NCBI GenBank assembly: GCA_036339735.1
Contig: JAYZAL010000030.1
Span: 1-46,781, forward strand
From: Candidatus Poribacteria bacterium
GTDB lineage: Bacteria > Poribacteria > WGA-4E > UBA9662
Length of the DNA: 46,781 nucleotides
Direction of reading: 5' to 3'
How positions within the stretch are numbered: the stretch's first letter is position 1; each line of letters starts with the position of its first letter. The notes below the pieces were generated by a model, which made no database searches, had not been told where the DNA came from, and saw nothing but the letters and a program-made list of their open reading frames with translations. A program made the position numbers and the translations under genes. Of the stretch, positions 1-7,817 are shown one piece after another.

Positions 1-720
1 GTCTCAACAAGATTCAATTCTGGTCAGACCAAACGCGAAACTGAGATAATAAACCCACAAACCAGTTCAGACACTGAGGAATATATCCAGCAAGGCTTAG
101 AAGCAATTAGGAACCTCGATAACCAAAGGCTTGAAGATATATTGATACAAGCAGCAGTTGAATTGAGTCGACCGCGACTATTAGAAGAAGTTATTACGCC
201 CCTGATGGATCAGGTTGGCAATGGTTGGCGTGAAGGTACGATCCGAATATCGAGTGAACATATGGCTAGTGAGGTGGTTAGAAGTTTTCTCGCAACTATC
301 AAATCTAGATCTAGAACACGACACCGAACTGGTCCCAGTATTGTAATTGCCACACCTTCGGGTCAATATCATTGTATCGGAGCTTTTACTATCGCAGTAA
401 CGGCCGAATCCGAGGGCTGGCAGACTAATTATCTTGGCGCCGACCTACCAGCCGTTGATATTATACAAGCGGCTACAAAAAATGATTCTCGAGCTGTTGC
501 CCTAAGCATTACTTACCCACCAGATGATCCACAACTTTCTCAAGAACTACAGACGTTACGCGCAGGATTGCCACCTAAAACTGAAATTCTGATCGGTGGA
601 AAATCAGCTTATGCTTATGACGAAGCAATAAGAGGTGCTCGCGCTTTGCACTTAACCTCCCTCAAAAGTTTTCGCGAAGCACTCAGAAATATTCGTTCTT
701 CAGAAGAAATAGAATTTTAA
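1..720 (+). CDS. carH: CarH/LitR-type cobalamin-dependent MerR-family photoreceptor/repressor, 5'-truncated by the window edge
   Basis: Frame is open from base 1 (VSTRFNSG...LEDILIQAAVEL). It has the W-x9-EH motif (GWREGTIRISSEH), then a Rossmann B12-binding domain (ATPSGQYHCIG...GWQTNYLGADLP...VALSIT...LIGG). The MerR HTH would lie upstream of the window. Confidence 0.8.
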   Translation, partial: VSTRFNSGQTKRETEIINPQTSSDTEEYIQQGLEAIRNLDNQRLEDILIQAAVELSRPRLLEEVITPLMDQVGNGWREGTIRISSEHMASEVVRSFLATIKSRSRTRHRTGPSIVIATPSGQYHCIGAFTIAVTAESEGWQTNYLGADLPAVDIIQAATKNDSRAVALSITYPPDDPQLSQELQTLRAGLPPKTEILIGGKSAYAYDEAIRGARALHLTSLKSFREALRNIRSSEEIEF

Positions 721-841: not shown

Positions 842-2086
842 TTAGCTACCGCTCTGTGTGGAATGGGCGAGGAGTCCATCTTCACCAGGGTTCTTATTAG
901 AAACGAGTGAAAAAGCAATCTGAATTCCTTGCTCCTCCACTATTATGCCAACAGTAGGGTCTTTCCCCACATAATCCTGCAACAAGGATCCGACTTCTTT
1001 GAAAATACTAGGTGTCAGATGATCTGCAGAAATTATAATAGCCACACCGCTACCGACATCCTGTGCTTTAATCTTCACTCCCCCGCGTAGACCAAGTTCA
1101 TTCATTTGGGTCGATACAAGGACCAAGCAGCTGGATATAATACTTATCGCTAATGACTTCTTTGTAACTAATAAGGGATCATGTTCTAAGTGAGGCAAGG
1201 GTGCTCCACCTACTTGTTTATAACAAGGACGCGCTAAATCTTGTGCAGATTTCAGCGTTTCTGATAAGGTAATAGCTTCATCATCTATTAAGACACCTTC
1301 TAATGCTGAAACTGATTCTCTAACATCTTCTAAACTAACTTCAATTTCGGTGATTGCTTCTTCTAAATCAGTCAATGCTGTCAAAGCCTGAGAAAGACCG
1401 TTTCTCATTGCATTCGGTGTTGAGGCCCCATCAATTTGAAGATGTTCCACTAGGCGTATAAACGATCGCAATCCAACAGAAGCCATACGACTCACATTGT
1501 TGTTGTAATCTAATAATTCAAGTGATTCCCTGATTTCGGTAAATCCGGAGGATGCGGCCAATTGAGTCAATGAGAGTCTCGGATTGTCCCGTTCTTGGTT
1601 TATTTCCTCAAGCCTTAGGCTAACTTGGTTGGCTAATTCAGACAACAGACGTTGATCTTCAGATGAAAATTTTCTCGGTTTAGTATCTATGACACAAAGT
1701 GAACCTGCAACGTGTTCGTTGATTTTTATAGGTATACCCATGTAGGCTCTAATTCCGTATTGGCGTACTAGTTGCTGCGGAACACGATTATCATCTTTTG
1801 CATTTTCAACTTCAAACGCTTCTCCGTCACGAACGACAAATTGACAAAAAGAAACATCTCTTTCTGTAGAGCGCAAAACCGCTAAGTCGGTGGGAAGACC
1901 ATAATGAGCCTTAAAAAACTGTATTTTTTCAAGAACCATTGTAACCATAGCCATCGGAGTTGAAAGGTTATTAGCAGCTTGACTAACGATTTCAGCTAAT
2001 TTGGGGTCCTCAACTTCCGCTAAGATCTCTTGAGAAAAGATTTTAGATCTTTCAGGTTGATGTCCTAATGCGTCATACTTGTCCAT
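842..2086 (-). CDS. GAF-domain sensor protein with a coiled-coil and a possible degenerate kinase-like C-terminus
   Basis: N-terminal GAF signature (SFCQFVV...FEVENAKDDNR...IRAYMGIPI...GSLCVIDTKPRKFS). No H/N/G boxes are recognisable downstream. Confidence 0.75.
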   Translation of the reverse strand: MDKYDALGHQPERSKIFSQEILAEVEDPKLAEIVSQAANNLSTPMAMVTMVLEKIQFFKAHYGLPTDLAVLRSTERDVSFCQFVVRDGEAFEVENAKDDNRVPQQLVRQYGIRAYMGIPIKINEHVAGSLCVIDTKPRKFSSEDQRLLSELANQVSLRLEEINQERDNPRLSLTQLAASSGFTEIRESLELLDYNNNVSRMASVGLRSFIRLVEHLQIDGASTPNAMRNGLSQALTALTDLEEAITEIEVSLEDVRESVSALEGVLIDDEAITLSETLKSAQDLARPCYKQVGGAPLPHLEHDPLLVTKKSLAISIISSCLVLVSTQMNELGLRGGVKIKAQDVGSGVAIIISADHLTPSIFKEVGSLLQDYVGKDPTVGIIVEEQGIQIAFSLVSNKNPGEDGLLAHSTQSGS

Positions 2087-2358
2087 TTTAATAATTCACC
2101 CAAAATAAAATTGATGTAGTTGAAAGTAAGATTGAATTTGTAAAATTTCCCTTACTCAAGAAAAGTTAAATAATCCACATTTTCTCTTTACTACAAGTTA
2201 TTTCCCTTTTTGTCCCTGTTAAATATAAACAGCAAATTGATCCTTTGGCTAAAGTTGCAAGCTTTCAGTAACACCTAATTACCTCTACTATCTTAGTTTT
2301 CCATATACTCTTTATTTGTATTTCTATACTTCACGCCATAAACTACAAAAATGTCTAC

Positions 2359-2387
2359 TTAACAGAAGACAGAGATTATTCTACTAT
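2359..2387 (+). promoter_or_regulatory. Putative sigma70 promoter upstream of the inverted sigma fragment
   Basis: TTAACA (2359-2364), 17-nt spacer, TACTAT (2382-2387). Confidence 0.4.
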
Positions 2388-2450
2388 AAATCACGACAGG
2401 AATCCATGAGTCATTGGCTTCGGATGCCTAATCTGGTTTTGGAAAGGAGG

Positions 2451-2556
2451 ATTGCTCGAGCCATATTATCTAGTAACCGCATGATAGCTTGACGTACCCA
2501 CCAAATTGCGTAAGTGCTAAACTTGAAATCCTTTGTATAATCAAACCTTTTGTCGC
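2451..2556 (-). repeat. Inverted ~106-bp copy of sigma-factor coding sequence 3466-3572
   Basis: The reverse complement aligns to 3466-3572 with 4 substitutions and one 1-nt gap by manual count. The perfect core is 73 bp (gene 3495-3567). Confidence 0.97.
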
Positions 2557-2769
2557 TCTCGTACAGCCTAAATATTCTTACCTCATAAATCCTTTAATTA
2601 ATTTAGTAATTACCTTACCTAACTTCCTAGGATAAACATGCAGAAGATCGACATGTTCCCCCTATACAAGCTGTTTGTCTAAATGAACCCTTGTCTAGGA
2701 AAAGGTGGGTAACTTAAGCAGGAACTGCCTCTCCCCCCCTGCATGTCTAAATAAAGCCCAAAAAAACCC

Positions 2770-2798
2770 TTGACAGCAAGTTAGACAAAATGTATTAT
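2770..2798 (+). promoter_or_regulatory. Near-consensus sigma70 promoter of the sigma-factor gene
   Basis: TTGACA (2770-2775), 17-nt spacer, TATTAT (2793-2798). Confidence 0.75.
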
Positions 2799-2811
2799 TA
2801 AGCATCAGGCC

Positions 2812-2827
2812 TAGACATATTTGTCTA
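2812..2827. promoter_or_regulatory. Palindromic operator candidate TAGACA-N4-TGTCTA just downstream of the predicted TSS
   Basis: Perfect 6-4-6 inverted repeat. Further TAGACA/TGTCTA half-sites lie at 2352, 2676, 2692, 2744 and 2782. Confidence 0.6.
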
Positions 2828-2844
2828 ACAAAGAAGGTAGCCCA

Positions 2845-2964
2845 ATGAAATTAAGCATCCCTATCATATCCAACTTGAAGAATCAACTCACTAGATTCAC
2901 TACACCGATAGAAGATACCAACGTAACCGTTTGGAAAATCTCTTACTTCTTAAGGATTTACTAG
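2845..2964 (+). CDS. Putative 39-aa leader ORF (MKLSIPIISNLKNQLTRFTTPIEDTNVTVWKISYFLRIY)
   Basis: ATG at 2845 is preceded by AGAAGG, with TAG at 2962-2964. It lies between the promoter and the sigma gene. No homology was recognised. Confidence 0.3.
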   Translation: MKLSIPIISNLKNQLTRFTTPIEDTNVTVWKISYFLRIY

Positions 2965-3060
2965 AGATGATGACTAGAGCTCTAATTAAAGAAAGCAGTA
3001 GATCCTAGCTTCAACATCGCCAAAATCAAAATCCCGTTACAATATAAAAAGGAACGTACC

Positions 3061-4083
3061 ATGACACAAATTTTAGTAGACAACAACAAAAGTGAAGCCC
3101 GTGTATTTCTAGACGAAGAAGTGAATTCAAATGATTTGACAAACGTTGAACATGAAGAAACAGACCGAGATATGGAAAATTCGATCTCAGAAGAAGTGAA
3201 TTCTTCCGATGAAGAGACTGAAACATACAGCAAGAGTTATGAAGGTGTTATTCCTCCTTGGTTATCTAAACTCGGCCAACACCGAATCCTGAGCAGGCAA
3301 GAGGAAAGAGAAATCGGGAAAAGAATAAAAGAGGGAGACGAAGATGCATGTAACCTTCTAGTTACACATAACTTCCGCTTAGTTTTCTCAGTTGCCCTAA
3401 AATATAAGGAACTAGGCGTTCCACTTGAAGACCTCGTTCAAGAGGGGAGTGTGGGCCTCATGAAGGCGGCAAAAAAGTTTGATTATACAAAGGGTTTCAA
3501 GTTTAGCACTTACGCAATTTGGTGGGTACGTCAAGCTATCATGCGGTTACTAGATAATATGGCTCGAACAATTCGCTTACCTTCGTATCTAATTGACAAA
3601 TCTTACTTGCTAGACGACGTACATGGCCATCTACAGAAAAAACTAAATCGGGACCCAAGTTTCGAAGAGATTGCGAACGAGCTAGAAATTGATACTGATC
3701 AAGTGGTCGCCATAACTACTTTAAAGAAAAGCACAGTATCTCTCGACAAGGGGCTCAACTCGACAGATGATGTAACAATAAGCTTAATCGATACTGTTGA
3801 AGATCCATATGCTGACCCTGAACAAACATATATCAGTGATATGGTAGATAAGGATCTAGTGGATAATCTTCTAGATAAACTATCAGATAAACAAAGCGAA
3901 GTCCTTAGGCGTAGGTATGGTATTGGTAAAGAAGGCAATGTCGAAACTTTAAGAGAGCTAGGTGATATGTTTGATTTAACTCGTGAACGTATAAGGCAAA
4001 TCGAAGTTGATGCCCTAGAGAAGTTGCGTAATGTGTACGACGAAAATGGCGAATCACGGTTGGCTGTAAATATAAATATCTAG
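3061..4083 (+). CDS. RNA polymerase sigma factor, RpoD/RpoS-like (group 2-type, probably non-primary)
   Basis: Region 1.2 (LSKLGQHRILSRQEE), region 2 (NFRLVFSVA...[37 protein letters not shown]...ARTIRLP), region 3, and region 4 (TLRELG...TRERIRQIE). Acidic N-terminus; AAGGA RBS. Confidence 0.93.
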   Translation: MTQILVDNNKSEARVFLDEEVNSNDLTNVEHEETDRDMENSISEEVNSSDEETETYSKSYEGVIPPWLSKLGQHRILSRQEEREIGKRIKEGDEDACNLLVTHNFRLVFSVALKYKELGVPLEDLVQEGSVGLMKAAKKFDYTKGFKFSTYAIWWVRQAIMRLLDNMARTIRLPSYLIDKSYLLDDVHGHLQKKLNRDPSFEEIANELEIDTDQVVAITTLKKSTVSLDKGLNSTDDVTISLIDTVEDPYADPEQTYISDMVDKDLVDNLLDKLSDKQSEVLRRRYGIGKEGNVETLRELGDMFDLTRERIRQIEVDALEKLRNVYDENGESRLAVNINI

Positions 4084-4301
4084 TCCCACTAGATTCAAGT
4101 TTTCTATCTCATTTCATACGAATTTGTACATTTGAGCAGATCGGGTATAGTCAATATCACTATCGGGTAAAGCCGGAGTAATGGATATACCCAAAATCTG
4201 TTCAAGAAAAACTGGTAGGAAAGAAAATATTGTACCTGAGTTGAGTAGAAGAGGTTACTAACAAATCCATTAGATTATAATAGAAAGGAGATAGGCAAAG
4301 G

Positions 4302-7300
4302 ATGAAGCATGTTTTCCGTGTTCCATTTCACCGATTAGTAACGTTTCTGAATGACCTCAGCAAAGGAATTGCAATTTGCCTACTCTACTGTTCACTTTTT
4401 TGTATGGCCTATGCTCACCCAAACCATAACAGGCCAGTACAATCGACAATCGAGGGTCGATTGTCATTAAATGCAGCACTTCGTACCGGTCAGGTAGGTA
4501 CTCTGGCACTTTCTTACGAGACTAAGTTAAATCAAACGGCTCAGGGCCAACTCGAGTTTAGGCTGCCAAAGGGTATAACGCCACTCTCCCCAACAACTTT
4601 TGGTAGCATTTATTTTGGCGCTCAAGAACAAAGAAGTCAAGTTTCTATTCGTGTTGATGCTCCTGGTCATTATCCGCTGCAAGCGTCTCTCTATTCCACC
4701 ACACCTGATGGCTACCAAACGGCTGAGCACTTTTATTTGTATCTCAAAACTGACCCAAGTCAAGCCGAAATCTCTTCATATCCTCTGATAAGCTATCAAC
4801 AGAACAGAGAACTCCGGTCTAAAGGCGGCCTTAGACCTGTATCAGCTAAAGATGTCAGTGTAGGAGGAAAACTCACTTACTACAACGATAATCAACGCCA
4901 AGTACGTCCTCTAGCTCGTGCGAAAGTATTATTGATTCAATCAGACATTCTCCTTGAAACCACATTTTCTAATTTGGACGGAGATTATCTGTTTCAGGGC
5001 GTAGTAATGCGGCCAGAGCAACCTAAAGCACTGCAGATTGTGGTTAAAATGGAAAATGACATCCTAGTTCTCAGAACACCAAACCGGGAGATCTACACTT
5101 TTGAGTCTGGCCTAATTCGAAATGTCGAAACCGGATATATTGAGAGAAATTTAACTCTGGACGTGAACAACCCTAATCGAGGAACAGGATATATATTCGA
5201 AAGCATTCAGAAAGCACATGACTTTGTGGAAACCCAAGTTAACACCCGTCGAACCAAATCTATAAATGTCATTTGGCCAGAACCATCTAACAGCTCATTC
5301 TATTATGCCGCGCAATCATTCGGTCGTATCAATAACGAATCAATTCATATTGCTACTGGAGCAGATCAGTGGAGAAAGAGCGTGATGTATCACGAATACG
5401 GCCACGCGTTGATGTCAGCGATGTATGATTATGATTTTGATAATATTCCTCGTGGTGAATACCGGAAGTTTCACACACTTGCCATGGTTACGGATCTAGA
5501 ATTCGCCTTTAGTGAAGGGTGGGCTGAATTCTTTGAGGCCGCCGTTGATAATCGAGCTATGGATTTAACCGGATTCCTAGATGGTCGAACACCCAACGTA
5601 GAAAACAATCAATGGTGGTCTGGTAGATATAATGGTCGTGGATCTAATTCAAATGGGGCTTTGGTAGAGGGAGCAGTAGCTAGTATATTGTGGGATATAT
5701 TCGACACGTCTGAATCCATTGATCTTTCTCCCAATACTGATGATGATCAAATCCAGAACCGGTTCGATCTGTTATGGAAAATTATACTTCGACAAAAACC
5801 TAAAAATATTTTGCAAATCGCCGAAAACTGGCGTGACGAGGGATATCCAAAATGGGAAGCACTACAAAGCATTTATGCCGAGCACCGTGCCTTATCCAAT
5901 ATCAAAACAGCACCGATCTTGACCTTCACAGCCCCTAACCAGCAGATAAATGTTCCAGTAGGTTCAAACTACGAAATATCTTGGACAACTAACCTACAAA
6001 ACCGTGAAAATTTGAAAGTTGATGTTTACTATTATGATAAAAGCCAAACACCCAAAGAAGCCAATTTAATCTCACGCCAAGTAACAAGTAGTAATTTAGT
6101 TTGGGATACAACAAAAGTTCCAAACGGTCGTTATTACCTTCTGGCTGTTTTCACCAACACGGAAGGTAAAGTAGTCCAAATCCCATCGAAATTCACCGTA
6201 ATAATTGATCAATCACCGCTACAACCGCCAGAGATCAATTTGTCCACCAACCCAGATATTTACAGAGTAGACATTACTAACAGTTCACCAATATTCAACC
6301 TGTCGATAGAAAAAAATGGTTCAACAAGTACCAAGGATAATATTTTCAGCTATTTGTTAGATCAACAATCAGACAGCATACCCAATACTGAAGCAGATCC
6401 TAGAGTTCTCGATGGTCAACTTAGATTTTACGAACTAGAACCAGGAATGTGGTGGTTGCATGTTCGTGCTTATGACCCATTGGGCTACTGGAGCGAGACT
6501 CAGCACTTGGGCTTCACAGTCCTTCCCACAATTATTGATGAACCTACTACTGATGTCTTAGAGTACCTTATTGAATTATCTATGTCTGAGCTAAAAGAAG
6601 ATAAGTTAAAAAAGTGGACATCAGAAATACGTCTTCAGCCTTACGGATTCTTAACTAACCGAGACTTGTCCGTCCTGATTGATACAACGGTAGCTTTGAA
6701 CGGATTAATGGAAACAACACAGATTCGAATTACCAAAGACAATCCAAATTTCAAAGTGTACTTTTATCCATCAGTAATGCTACGTGCAGTAGATCCAGAT
6801 TATCGAATCGATAACCCGAGTTTCGTCATTAATCAGTCGAAAAAAAACGAGATCGTTAGTTCAAAGGTTCTAATCGATAGTTTTCGTACTAACCAAACAC
6901 AGCGAGATCATTTGATTCGCAAATGTGTTGCACAAGGATTGGGGCTTACAATAGATGGCAATAGTTATCCGGATAGTATTTTCCATCAAAGATGGAATGA
7001 CGTTACTAGGCTATCACCACTCGACAAACAAGTGATAAGGTTATTCTATAGCGATCAGGTACTATCAGGGATGACTGCACAACAACTTCTACAACTGGAT
7101 ACTAATCAACGACAAAATCCTAACCTAAATGAGTTAGTTGAATCAACTAGTGAAGACACTATAATAGAAGAAATAAACAATCTTCAACCTGAGACTTTAG
7201 CAGGAGATATCAACGGGGATGGAACTGTAGATATTTTTGACTTAGTGATTACGGCAGCATCGTTTGGCAAAACTGGCACTAGCCTTCTATCGGATGCGAA

Positions 7301-7817
7301 CAATGATAATCGTATAGACGTTTTGGATTTAGTCATTGTATACAGCAACTTTAGTCTCTCAGCTGAATTTACACCTTCAATGATTTCCCAAGTTTCGTTA
7401 AGCACGGATGATAAAAAGCACATCACTTCAGCAATAGACCAATTATCATCCAGCACCAACAAGTCAAGCGCAGAAGAAATAACATTAAATATTTTAAAAT
7501 CAATTCTGCCTGAAAGATTACCAGCACGCACCCGCCTGTTAGCTAATTACCCGAATCCATTTAACCCTGAGACATGGATCCCTTTCCAGTTAGCAAAAGA
7601 TTCAATCATACGCATAAACATATATGATCCAACCGGTGAACGCGTTAGATTAATTAACTTGGGGCAATTAACAGCGGGAAACTATGTAGAGCCTGGGAAA
7701 GCGGTTCTTTGGGATGGAACAACAGATAATGGAGAATTGGTGGCTAGTGGACCTTACTTCTATCAAATTGAATCAGAGGGCTATACAGAAATACGAAAAA
7801 TGGTCATAGTGAAATAA
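4302..7817 (+). CDS. Large secreted multidomain protein: Zn-metallopeptidase-like domain, Ig-like domains, DUF2927-like domain, dockerin, and T9SS-A/FlgD-like C-terminal domain
   Basis: Signal-peptide-like segment (GIAICLLYCSLFCMAYA); HEYGH plus a downstream FSEGWAEF; KWTSEIRL...QGLGL...DSIF...LSPLD...SGMT; GDINGDGTVDIFDLV...DANNDNRIDVLDLV; LLANYPNPFNPETWIPFQLA...WDG...VASGPYFYQI...RKMVIVK. Confidence 0.8.
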   Translation: MKHVFRVPFHRLVTFLNDLSKGIAICLLYCSLFCMAYAHPNHNRPVQSTIEGRLSLNAALRTGQVGTLALSYETKLNQTAQGQLEFRLPKGITPLSPTTFGSIYFGAQEQRSQVSIRVDAPGHYPLQASLYSTTPDGYQTAEHFYLYLKTDPSQAEISSYPLISYQQNRELRSKGGLRPVSAKDVSVGGKLTYYNDNQRQVRPLARAKVLLIQSDILLETTFSNLDGDYLFQGVVMRPEQPKALQIVVKMENDILVLRTPNREIYTFESGLIRNVETGYIERNLTLDVNNPNRGTGYIFESIQKAHDFVETQVNTRRTKSINVIWPEPSNSSFYYAAQSFGRINNESIHIATGADQWRKSVMYHEYGHALMSAMYDYDFDNIPRGEYRKFHTLAMVTDLEFAFSEGWAEFFEAAVDNRAMDLTGFLDGRTPNVENNQWWSGRYNGRGSNSNGALVEGAVASILWDIFDTSESIDLSPNTDDDQIQNRFDLLWKIILRQKPKNILQIAENWRDEGYPKWEALQSIYAEHRALSNIKTAPILTFTAPNQQINVPVGSNYEISWTTNLQNRENLKVDVYYYDKSQTPKEANLISRQVTSSNLVWDTTKVPNGRYYLLAVFTNTEGKVVQIPSKFTVIIDQSPLQPPEINLSTNPDIYRVDITNSSPIFNLSIEKNGSTSTKDNIFSYLLDQQSDSIPNTEADPRVLDGQLRFYELEPGMWWLHVRAYDPLGYWSETQHLGFTVLPTIIDEPTTDVLEYLIELSMSELKEDKLKKWTSEIRLQPYGFLTNRDLSVLIDTTVALNGLMETTQIRITKDNPNFKVYFYPSVMLRAVDPDYRIDNPSFVINQSKKNEIVSSKVLIDSFRTNQTQRDHLIRKCVAQGLGLTIDGNSYPDSIFHQRWNDVTRLSPLDKQVIRLFYSDQVLSGMTAQQLLQLDTNQRQNPNLNELVESTSEDTIIEEINNLQPETLAGDINGDGTVDIFDLVITAASFGKTGTSLLSDANNDNRIDVLDLVIVYSNFSLSAEFTPSMISQVSLSTDDKKHITSAIDQLSSSTNKSSAEEITLNILKSILPERLPARTRLLANYPNPFNPETWIPFQLAKDSIIRINIYDPTGERVRLINLGQLTAGNYVEPGKAVLWDGTTDNGELVASGPYFYQIESEGYTEIRKMVIVK

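What the first reader, a model, noticed from the sequence alone, without database searches (positions are those of the whole stretch)
2359..3572. Sigma gene preceded by a ~95%-identical inverted copy of its own region 2.3-2.4: possible self-antisense RNA or fold-back
Seen: 2451-2556 is the reverse complement of 3466-3572 (codons ~136-171, [30 protein letters not shown]), with a 73-bp perfect core. A plausible + strand promoter (TTAACA-N17-TACTAT, 2359-2387) lies ~60 nt upstream, next to a TGTCTA box. A + strand transcript would be antisense to the sigma mRNA. It could act as a separate sRNA, or, since no terminator is obvious, as a read-through leader forming a ~100-bp duplex (RNase III-type substrate). 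The shorter mRNA from the 2770 promoter would lack the intramolecular duplex. Inference: a gene-derived antisense silencer, or a two-promoter switch.
Basis: partly seen in the sequence, partly recalled or inferred. Interest (0 to 1): 0.85.

Follow-up and report, generated by a model that had tools for sequence, protein, structure and literature searches.

The report
Inverted sigma-gene fragment kept by conversion
A 101-base piece of a sigma-factor gene sits in reverse orientation about 900 bases upstream of the same gene in several related marine bacteria and stays nearly identical to the gene, most likely through DNA copy-correction, while a regulatory role is possible but unshown.

Summary
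Window 2451-2551 is the reverse complement of 3472-3572 (98 of 101 bases, 73-base perfect core). The parent stretch encodes region 2.3-2.4 of a 340-aa RpoS/RpoD-like sigma-70 gene (3061-4083). It is the only spaced inverted repeat of 50 nt or more in the 4.32-Mb genome.

It is not an assembly artefact. The same repeat lies at the same place, with 920 nt between the arms, in four other distinct sequences of a sister clade. A third species carries a 384-nt version, 99.5% identical to its own gene.

The copy follows its own genome's gene: 0-11 mismatches in 107, against a synonymous divergence of 0.19-0.8 between lineages. That is concerted evolution, best explained by gene conversion. The closest described case is the inverted partial ntrX duplicate of Ehrlichia ruminantium.

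The antisense or fold-back idea is untested. RNA contigs from two studies cover the gene from about 2987 and 3004 onward, and none covers the copy. The proposed promoter is a chance-level match with a conserved -10. There is no terminator.

My odds: passenger relic kept by conversion about 0.45, antisense regulator about 0.27, recombination (inversion) switch about 0.1. Interest is moderate.

The parts
2451..2551 (-). Upstream inverted partial copy of the sigma gene. Its coding sense lies on the - strand and corresponds to aa 138-171, region 2.3-2.4. Decayed edges reach about 2438-2566.
   Evidence: (tblastn-type match 2438-2566, aa 133-175, 77%, open frame only 60 aa)
3472..3572 (+). Parent arm inside the sigma CDS. 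The perfect 73-nt core is 3495-3567.
   Evidence: core contig at 2x depth in DNA run X1
3061..4083 (+). Sigma-70 family gene, 340 aa, with regions 1.2, 2, 3 and 4. Its best NCBIfam hits are RpoS and RpoD models, all below their cut-offs.
   Evidence: RNA contigs cover it from 2987 (X15) and 3004 (X17)
2348..2417 (.). Most conserved non-coding block of the intergenic region. It lies 30 nt outside the outer edge of the copy. Its core TACTATAAATCA...GAC.AG.TCCA..AGTCAT is also present in the third species, directly abutting that species' 384-nt copy. Strand of action unknown.
   Evidence: 3 of 70 differences G000-L047, against 0.33 and 0.27 in the flanking stretches
2359..2387 (+). The same hexamer reads TATAGT on the - strand, pointing to the GAF gene.
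   Evidence: 9 of 12; -10 invariant in all lineages; -35 is TTATCA in clade B and absent in G001
2770..2798 (+). Near-consensus sigma-70 promoter TTGACA-N17-TATTAT, invariant in the 4 aligned sequences.
   Evidence: 11 of 12
2676..2827 (.). Cluster of six TAGACA/TGTCTA (TnnACA-type) boxes around and inside the 2770 promoter. It is the only such cluster in the genome.
   Evidence: the motif matches the CarH direct-repeat core given in PMC9304148 (passages read)
2845..2964 (+). Conserved 39-codon small ORF between the 2770 promoter and the sigma gene.
   Evidence: same length and stop in 4 of 4 sequences; TTA>TTG and AGG>CGG are silent changes
842..2086 (-). Divergent GAF-domain gene, 414 aa. 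Found only in this genus (3 of 21 genomes searched).
1..720 (+). B12-binding, CarH-like protein. Its 5' end is cut off by the contig end.
   Evidence: NCBIfam CarH, E 5.9e-20, below cut-off; profile positions 88-263 of 274

Best explanation
The upstream element is an old inverted partial duplication of the sigma gene. It probably once covered at least aa 106-234, as it still does in one species. It lies in the long regulatory region between the sigma gene and a divergent GAF gene.

Recurrent intrachromosomal gene conversion between the two inverted arms keeps it nearly identical to the parent. Conversion is an inference from the sequence pattern. It needs flanking homology, so the edges escape it and erode. 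This would explain why the repeat has shrunk to a core of about 100 nt in two of the three lineages.

On this reading the copy is a non-coding passenger rather than a dedicated regulator. Its conservation is borrowed from the protein-coding constraint on region 2.3-2.4. Shown here: the duplicate exists, sits at the same site in relatives, and evolves in concert with the gene. Inferred: that conversion is the mechanism, and that the copy has no function of its own.
For: 1) The repeat is real and unique: 101 nt at 97%, and the only spaced inverted repeat of 50 nt or more in 4.32 Mb.

2) The site is ancestral. The repeat has the same position and the same 920-nt spacing in L005/L047 (107 nt, 95%), L095 (93.5%) and L093 (89.7%; L094 is an identical record). 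In G001 a 384-nt copy lies beside the same GAF gene and the same conserved block.

3) It evolves in concert with the gene. Copy against own CDS shows 6, 4, 7, 11 and 0 mismatches in 107 nt. Synonymous divergence of the rest of the gene is 0.43 (G000 vs L047), 0.19 (L047 vs L093) and about 0.7 (vs G001). At 3 of the 6 sites where the G000 and clade-B CDS differ, each copy carries its own genome's base. In G001 the copy matches its CDS at 382 of 384 positions.

4) It shows the marks of a non-functional sequence. The edges are decayed and include an indel. The open frame is only 60 aa. L093's copy has non-synonymous and double changes in its inner half at about the intergenic rate: 7 of 60 against 0.12-0.14 in the flanks. 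Mismatches show no bias toward G-U-compatible changes (my reading).

5) No RNA contig covers the copy in the two RNA runs, whereas the gene is covered at depths 264 and 57.

6) A described precedent has the same pattern: a 421-bp inverted partial ntrX duplicate about 2 kb from the gene, with segmental conversion, which its authors consider unexpressed (PMC9937504, abstract and sections 11 and 16 read).
Against: The element persists across lineages whose intergenic DNA is otherwise unalignable (G001 against the others). No lineage without it was found, though only 3 species-level lineages exist in the collections.

The outer half of the copy is perfectly identical to the CDS in every clade-B sequence. 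L047 and L093 differ at 0 of 47 positions there, where about 6-9 would be expected from intergenic or synonymous rates (my arithmetic).

The copy sits next to the best-conserved non-coding block of the region, which contains a conserved -10-like hexamer pointing into it.

The G001 copy is longer and almost perfect. That requires either a very recent long conversion or a fresh duplication at the same spot.

A 100-400-nt inverted repeat flanking the 5' half of the gene should carry a recombination cost, so its retention hints at a benefit. The absence of RNA contigs is not evidence of silence.
Confidence: 0.45

Rival explanations
1. Gene-derived antisense regulator. A + strand promoter in the conserved block (-10 TACTAT, 2382-2387) produces an RNA whose 101-nt body (384 nt in G001) is antisense to the sigma mRNA. 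It acts in one of two ways. As a separate RNA it pairs with the mRNA and triggers double-strand-specific cleavage. As a read-through leader it folds back on the coding region. Gene conversion then serves to keep the regulator matched to its target.
For: The complementarity is long and is kept up to date in every lineage.

The -10 hexamer and the following AAATCA are invariant in G000, clade B and G001, and in all three they point into the copy.

The copy is much better conserved than its immediate flanks: 0.09 against 0.33 and 0.27. The outer 43-74 nt are perfect in all clade-B sequences.

A read-through RNA is predicted to pair the two arms completely. A TnnACA box overlaps the -35, which suggests control by the same factor as the main promoter.
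Against: No RNA contig covers 2355-2986 in the two metatranscriptome runs, and the mRNA contigs begin at 2987 and 3004, downstream of the copy (weak evidence).

The only RNA contig near the block lies on its other side (2085-2353, depth 4.2). That fits a - strand start toward the GAF gene better.

The promoter match is at chance level and its -35 is lost in G001. There is no terminator, and the stand-alone RNA folds no better than shuffles (z +1.2).

The inner half of the copy drifts freely in L093, and mismatches are not biased toward wobble pairs. There is no Rfam match.
Confidence: 0.27
2. Recombination switch. Homologous (RecA-type) crossing-over between the arms inverts the 920-nt segment that carries the promoters, the small ORF and codons 1-137. 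The flipped state would split the sigma gene. It would leave a truncated region 1.2-2.4 protein reading toward the GAF gene, and regions 3-4 without a promoter. This would be an on/off or dominant-negative phase variation. Homogenisation of the arms would be a by-product.
For: The geometry matches a 'partial intergenic inverton', with one arm in a gene and one outside it (PMC10028968, passages read).

The perfect cores of 73 nt (G000) and 373 nt (G001) are long enough for homologous recombination (the length requirement is from general knowledge).

Concerted evolution shows that the arms do interact. Data based on k = 31 contigs cannot tell the two orientations apart, so the flipped form could be present and go unseen (my reasoning).
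Against: All 5 distinct assembled sequences (G000, L047, L093, L095, and G001 as far as its two contigs reach) show the gene-intact orientation.

Read laying reported no joints.

No serine or tyrosine recombinase gene lies on this contig. The only hits are on C77/C19 and C29/C49. However, the contig starts only 2.4 kb to the left of the copy.

The arms are far longer than typical invertase sites, and their length differs between species.
Confidence: 0.1
3. Assembly artefact: a fold-back chimera or a mix of strains.
For: The window comes from a metagenome-assembled genome with 2.4% estimated contamination. The repeat lies 2.4 kb from a contig end.
Against: The same architecture is found in independent assemblies whose flanks are only 82-87% identical.

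DNA contigs in run X1 cross each junction: 2000-2485, 2499-2790, 2761-3524 and 3538-3698. The core is at twice the depth of its flanks. Run X5, from another study, crosses the left junction (2000-2480).
Confidence: 0.01

Closest known systems
Inverted partial ntrX duplicate of Ehrlichia ruminantium (PMC9937504; abstract and sections 11 and 16 read)
   Same: It is a partial copy of a regulatory gene, inverted, within a few kb of the parent and present in all related genomes. At some sites the copy and the gene agree within a genome but differ between genomes, which indicates segmental gene conversion. One end is more decayed than the other.
   Different: In Ehrlichia the copy is 421 bp, lies about 2 kb downstream, and has been compared only among strains of one species. 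Here it lies upstream, inside the gene's own regulatory region, next to a conserved promoter-like block. It persists across species whose synonymous sites are at or near saturation, and its length differs between species (about 100 nt and 384 nt).
Concerted evolution of the inverted tufA/tufB genes in Salmonella
   Same: RecA-dependent gene conversion between inverted repeats in one chromosome keeps the sequences near-identical over long periods.
   Different: Those are two complete functional genes, far apart. Here one partner is a non-coding fragment of about 100 nt.
Partial intergenic invertons and shufflons (PMC10028968, passages read)
   Same: Inverted repeats with one arm inside a coding region and the other outside it, flanking a promoter-bearing segment.
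   Different: Invertons use short repeats recognised by a dedicated recombinase, and both orientations are seen in reads. Here there is no nearby recombinase, the arms are long and gene-derived, and only one orientation has been observed.
Bacterial antisense RNAs with extended complementarity cleaved by RNase III (general class; review PMC5415839 seen only in a search listing)
   Same: A perfect duplex of about 100 nt with the target mRNA would be possible.
   Different: Known cis-antisense RNAs are transcribed from the opposite strand of the target locus itself. Here the antisense sequence would come from a displaced, inverted copy on the same strand as the gene, and no transcript has been seen.

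Membership tests
Inverted partial gene duplicate homogenised by gene conversion (ntrX type) | Partial copy of the parent gene, in inverted orientation, within a few kb | tested here: met
   101 nt, 97%, 920 nt apart; matches aa 133-175
Inverted partial gene duplicate homogenised by gene conversion (ntrX type) | Copy present at the orthologous site in related lineages (ancestral duplication) | tested here: met
   present in all 5 distinct same-genus sequences (G000, L047, L095, L093, G001)
Inverted partial gene duplicate homogenised by gene conversion (ntrX type) | Sites where copy and gene agree within a genome but differ between genomes | tested here: met
   3 of 6 CDS-variable sites between G000 and clade B; G001 has 0 of 107 mismatches to its own CDS against 18-27 to the other lineages
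Inverted partial gene duplicate homogenised by gene conversion (ntrX type) | Copy itself not expressed and without function | tested here: inconclusive
   no RNA contig over the copy in 2 RNA runs, but contigs cannot show absence; open frame only 60 aa
Antisense RNA regulator | Extended complementarity to the target mRNA | tested here: met
Antisense RNA regulator | A promoter that drives the antisense strand | tested here: inconclusive
   9 of 12 match, class at chance level; -10 conserved, -35 not conserved in G001
Antisense RNA regulator | A detectable transcript of the antisense strand | tested here: inconclusive
   none in the contigs of runs X15 and X17; no stranded raw reads were available
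Antisense RNA regulator | A defined 3' end or terminator, or a stable fold | tested here: not met
   no + strand terminator-like site; z-score +1.2
Inverton (DNA inversion switch) | Inverted repeats flanking a promoter-bearing or gene-bearing segment | tested here: met
Inverton (DNA inversion switch) | Both orientations present in the population | tested here: inconclusive
   only the forward orientation in 5 assemblies and no joints reported, but k = 31 contigs cannot distinguish the orientations
Inverton (DNA inversion switch) | A dedicated site-specific recombinase nearby | tested here: not met
   no PF00239 or PF00589 match on contig C30
Diversity-generating retroelement (template and variable repeats) | A reverse transcriptase gene, and adenine-specific mismatches | tested here: not met
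   no PF00078 match in the 92%-complete genome; mismatches are not adenine-specific

The most novel reading that the evidence does not exclude
The fragment is a self-updating antisense regulator. A piece of the sigma gene was copied in reverse into the gene's own upstream region, beside a promoter that carries the same B12/light-repressor-type boxes as the main promoter. Its transcript silences the sigma mRNA through a perfect duplex of 100-380 nt. Gene conversion from the target gene continually re-matches the regulator to its target, so regulator and target cannot drift apart. That would be a new route by which bacterial antisense regulators arise and are maintained.
Probability: 0.25. Interest if true: 0.75.

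Novelty: new member of a known kind. Interest (0 to 1): 0.45.

Why it matters
If the copy is only a passenger, it is a clean natural example of how gene conversion can preserve a useless gene fragment across species of a genus. It also shows how such a fragment erodes from its edges. This is useful for people who interpret conserved non-coding sequence, because here the conservation is borrowed from a coding region elsewhere.

If the copy is transcribed, it would show a bacterial regulator made from its own target and kept matched by recombination. It would sit in what looks like a B12/light-controlled sigma-factor module of an uncultured marine lineage.

In either case the repeat puts the sigma gene at risk of inversion and of importing mutations from the copy, as happened in Ehrlichia ntrX.

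Tried and rejected
Assembly chimera: rejected.

Diversity-generating retroelement: rejected. No reverse transcriptase was found, the repeats are inverted, and the mismatches are not adenine-specific.

Known RNA family: none. The only two Rfam matches, at E 0.23 and 3.4, lie elsewhere (4103-4230 and 3881-3967) and are far below their gathering scores.

Translated mini-sigma: unlikely. The frame is open for only 60 aa in G000, and L093's copy carries non-conservative changes. G001 has a 159-aa ORF over its copy, but I saw no ribosome-binding site (by eye).

Mobile element with long terminal inverted repeats: rejected, because one arm is a conserved part of the sigma coding sequence.

Similar repeats at other sigma loci: I scanned 139 loci. 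Of the 13 spaced inverted pairs found, only those in L038 (this window), L093, L094 and L095 have an arm in the sigma CDS. Flanks of the order-level loci were only 1.5 kb.

Extra constraint on synonymous sites in the parent arm: there is a trend only. pS is 0.24 against 0.43, and 0.05 against 0.19, on about 21 sites, with no such trend against G001.

RNA cover:
- There is no RNA contig over 2355-2986 in X15 and X17. Contigs cannot show absence.
- The break of the X15 contig at 3567/3538 looked at first like a sign of copy-derived reads. A clade-B-like strain in the same run explains it as well, because clade B differs at 3537.

Earlier findings of this scan: 3 answered look-ups returned nothing.

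Literature: full-text searches for a bacterial antisense RNA arising from a partial duplication returned no such case among the titles listed. This is not proof that none is in print. Supplementary files were not consulted.
Full report
**Observation**

The window holds one long inverted repeat. Arms 2451-2551 and 3472-3572 are 101 nt long, 97% complementary, and 920 nt apart. Identity drops sharply beyond both ends, apart from about 24 decayed bases with one indel on the inner side and about 10 on the outer side. In a 107-nt frame the mismatches fall at positions 5, 23, 97, 102, 104 and 106. This leaves a perfect run of 73 nt, 3495-3567 = 2456-2528.

The right arm lies in a 340-aa sigma-70 family gene (3061-4083) with regions 1.2, 2, 3 and 4. 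The gene's best NCBIfam hits are RpoS and RpoD models, all below their cut-offs. The arm encodes region 2.3-2.4.

A self-comparison of the whole 4.32-Mb genome found five same-contig inverted pairs of 50 nt or more. Four are self-palindromes, and this is the only spaced pair. The only other match to the arm in the genome is a paralogous sigma gene at 74% identity.

**Not an artefact**

In DNA run X1, separate contigs cross each junction: 2000-2485, 2499-2790, 2761-3524 and 3538-3698. The 73-nt core is a contig of its own at depth 18.2, between flanks at 8.9-10.2, as expected for two copies. Run X5, from another study, crosses the left junction (2000-2480).

More important, the same architecture occurs in other assemblies whose flanks are only 82-87% identical to the window.

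**Relatives**

Among the 40 related genomes searched, close orthologues of the sigma protein exist in only two, both of the same genus: G002 at 92% and G001 at 78%. The next best match is 51%. The divergent GAF gene is likewise found in only 3 of the 21 genomes searched (20 relatives plus the window's own genome).

- **G002.** L005/L047 carries the record title 'MAG: Candidatus Poribacteria bacterium isolate SAT10'. It has the repeat at the same place: 107 nt, 95%, and again 920 nt between the arms.
- **Metagenome contigs.** L095 is 98.8% identical to L047, and L093 is 93.4% identical to it. L094 is an identical record of L093. These contigs carry the repeat at 93.5% and 89.7%.
- **G001.** The locus is split over two contigs. 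C175 holds the GAF gene and then, about 410 nt further on, a 384-nt inverted copy. This copy is 99.5% identical to aa 106-234 of G001's own sigma gene on C257. The two mismatches lie at positions 8 and 11, next to one edge.

So all five distinct same-genus sequences have the element, but these amount to only three species-level lineages and are not independent.

**Concerted evolution**

Copy against own CDS shows 6 (G000), 4 (L047), 7 (L095), 11 (L093) and 0 (G001) mismatches in 107 nt. Synonymous divergence (pS) of the rest of the gene is 0.43 between G000 and L047, 0.19 between L047 and L093, and about 0.7 against G001.

Without any exchange since these splits, a neutral copy would differ from its gene at some tens of positions (my arithmetic).

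At 3 of the 6 sites where the G000 and clade-B coding arms differ (positions 36, 60 and 66), each copy carries the base of its own genome. In G001 the copy shares all 18-22 differences that separate its CDS from the others.

The copy is also much better conserved between G000 and L047 (0.085-0.10) than the stretches on either side of it (0.33 and 0.27).

Within clade B the pattern is segmental:
- The inner half carries copy-specific bases shared by all clade-B copies. In L093 it has also drifted at about the intergenic rate (7 of 60).
- The outer 43-74 nt are identical to the CDS in every clade-B sequence. L047 and L093 differ at 0 of 47 positions there.

**What the pattern means**

The pattern has four elements: an ancestral site, agreement within a genome, segmental tracts and eroding edges. 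This is the pattern described for the 421-bp inverted partial ntrX duplicate of Ehrlichia ruminantium. Its authors attribute that pattern to recurrent gene conversion and regard the copy as probably unexpressed (PMC9937504; abstract and sections 11 and 16 read).

Conversion alone therefore explains the similarity. The conservation is borrowed from the coding constraint on region 2.3-2.4.

Several observations fit a passenger. The frame of the copy is open for only 60 aa. L093's copy has non-conservative and double substitutions. Mismatches show no preference for wobble-compatible changes (my reading).

**The antisense or fold-back idea**

As a class, however, such sites are no more frequent than in shuffles (7 found, 6.8 +/- 3.0 expected), and there is no + strand terminator-like site.

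The promoter lies inside the best-conserved non-coding block of the region, 2348-2417, which shows 3 differences in 70 between G000 and L047. The core of the block, TACTATAAATCA followed by GAC.AG.TCCA..AGTCAT, is also present in G001. There it directly abuts the outer edge of the 384-nt copy.

The -10 hexamer is therefore invariant and points into the copy in all three lineages. The -35 is TTATCA in clade B and is not recognisable in G001. The same hexamer also reads TATAGT on the other strand, toward the GAF gene.

A read-through RNA would pair the arms completely. A stand-alone RNA (2394-2640) folds no better than shuffles, with z = +1.2. There is no Rfam match in the region.

**RNA data**

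Only unstranded Logan contigs were available. In two metatranscriptome runs from different studies, contigs cover the sigma gene at depths 264 (X15) and 57 (X17). They begin at 2987 and 3004, where DNA contigs continue. By the tool's own standard this is a weak hint of an mRNA 5' end 57-74 nt upstream of the start codon. That position is downstream of the copy, the 2770 promoter and the small ORF.

No RNA contig covers 2355-2986. This is not evidence of silence.

X15 has a low-depth contig (4.2) over 2085-2353, on the GAF side of the block. This fits a - strand start in the block at least as well as a + strand one.

**Inversion switch**

The geometry is that of a 'partial intergenic inverton' (PMC10028968, passages read). 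Crossing-over in the core would flip the promoters and codons 1-137 and split the gene.

All five assembled sequences show the intact orientation. No joints were reported. No serine or tyrosine recombinase gene lies on this contig.

Because the two orientations share all 31-mers when the crossover lies in the perfect core, the contig data cannot exclude a minority flipped form (my reasoning).

**Context**

The 974-nt intergenic region is dense with conserved elements:
- a near-consensus promoter, TTGACA-N17-TATTAT, at 2770-2798;
- six TAGACA/TGTCTA boxes between 2676 and 2827, the only such cluster in the genome;
- a conserved 39-codon ORF at 2845-2964.

The boxes match the TnnACA core of CarH direct repeats (PMC9304148, passages read). 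The gene at the contig start encodes a B12-binding, CarH-like protein. The module looks like a B12/light-controlled sigma-factor unit. This is inference.

**Verdict**

The element is real, conserved across the genus and evolving in concert with its parent gene. My best reading is an old inverted partial duplication kept by gene conversion, with no function of its own (0.45). The antisense regulator (0.27) and the recombination switch (0.1) remain open, because neither stranded RNA reads nor arm-spanning DNA reads could be examined.

I file it as a new member of a known kind, the ntrX-type inverted partial duplicate. It is of moderate interest for three reasons: its persistence across deeply diverged species, its position inside the gene's own regulatory region, and its longer, near-perfect form in one species.

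Noticed in passing
window 2676-2827, with 1-720: Six TAGACA/TGTCTA (TnnACA-type) boxes surround and overlap a near-consensus promoter (2770-2798). It is the only such cluster in the 4.32-Mb genome. A B12-binding, CarH-like gene lies at the contig start. Together they look like a B12/light-repressed promoter for the sigma gene.
   Followed up: partly
window 2845-2964 (+): A 39-codon ORF (MKLSIPIISNLKNQLTRFTTPIEDTNVTVWKISYFLRIY) lies between the 2770 promoter and the sigma gene. Its length and stop are kept in 4 of 4 aligned sequences, and some changes are silent. It has no NCBIfam match. No RNA contig covered it.
   Followed up: partly
window 2987-3004: RNA contigs from two studies begin here, 57-74 nt upstream of the sigma start codon, where DNA contigs continue. 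This is a weak hint of a proximal promoter or a processing site. I found no convincing conserved -10/-35 pair by eye.
   Followed up: partly
window 2085-2353: A 269-nt RNA-run contig (X15, depth 4.2) covers exactly the stretch between the GAF start codon and the conserved block. It covers neither the GAF coding sequence nor the copy. It may be a GAF leader or a separate RNA. Strand unknown.
   Followed up: no
L044 1295-1774 (-) (G001 contig C175): In G001 the 384-nt copy lies in a 159-aa ORF with an ATG start. The ORF would encode sigma regions 2.1-3.1 with short foreign ends. I saw no ribosome-binding site by eye.
   Followed up: no
L155 (G002:C49:22667-23905, -): The GAF-gene orthologue in G002 is read through one in-frame TGA. 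This may be a sequencing error or a pseudogene.
   Followed up: no
window 4302-7817 (+): A 1171-aa protein with DUF2927 and a C-terminal FlgD Ig-like domain lies directly downstream of the sigma gene. The X17 RNA contig that starts at 3004 is 2927 nt long, so it runs on into this gene.
   Followed up: no
L047 vs L095, copy inner half (window 2492-2551 equivalent): These two sequences are 98.8% identical overall. The inner half of the copy has 2 differences in 60 nt, while the three intergenic stretches counted (window 2087-2347, 2552-2669 and 2670-2765) have 2 in 476. This may be a locally raised change rate in the repeat. The numbers are small.
   Followed up: no
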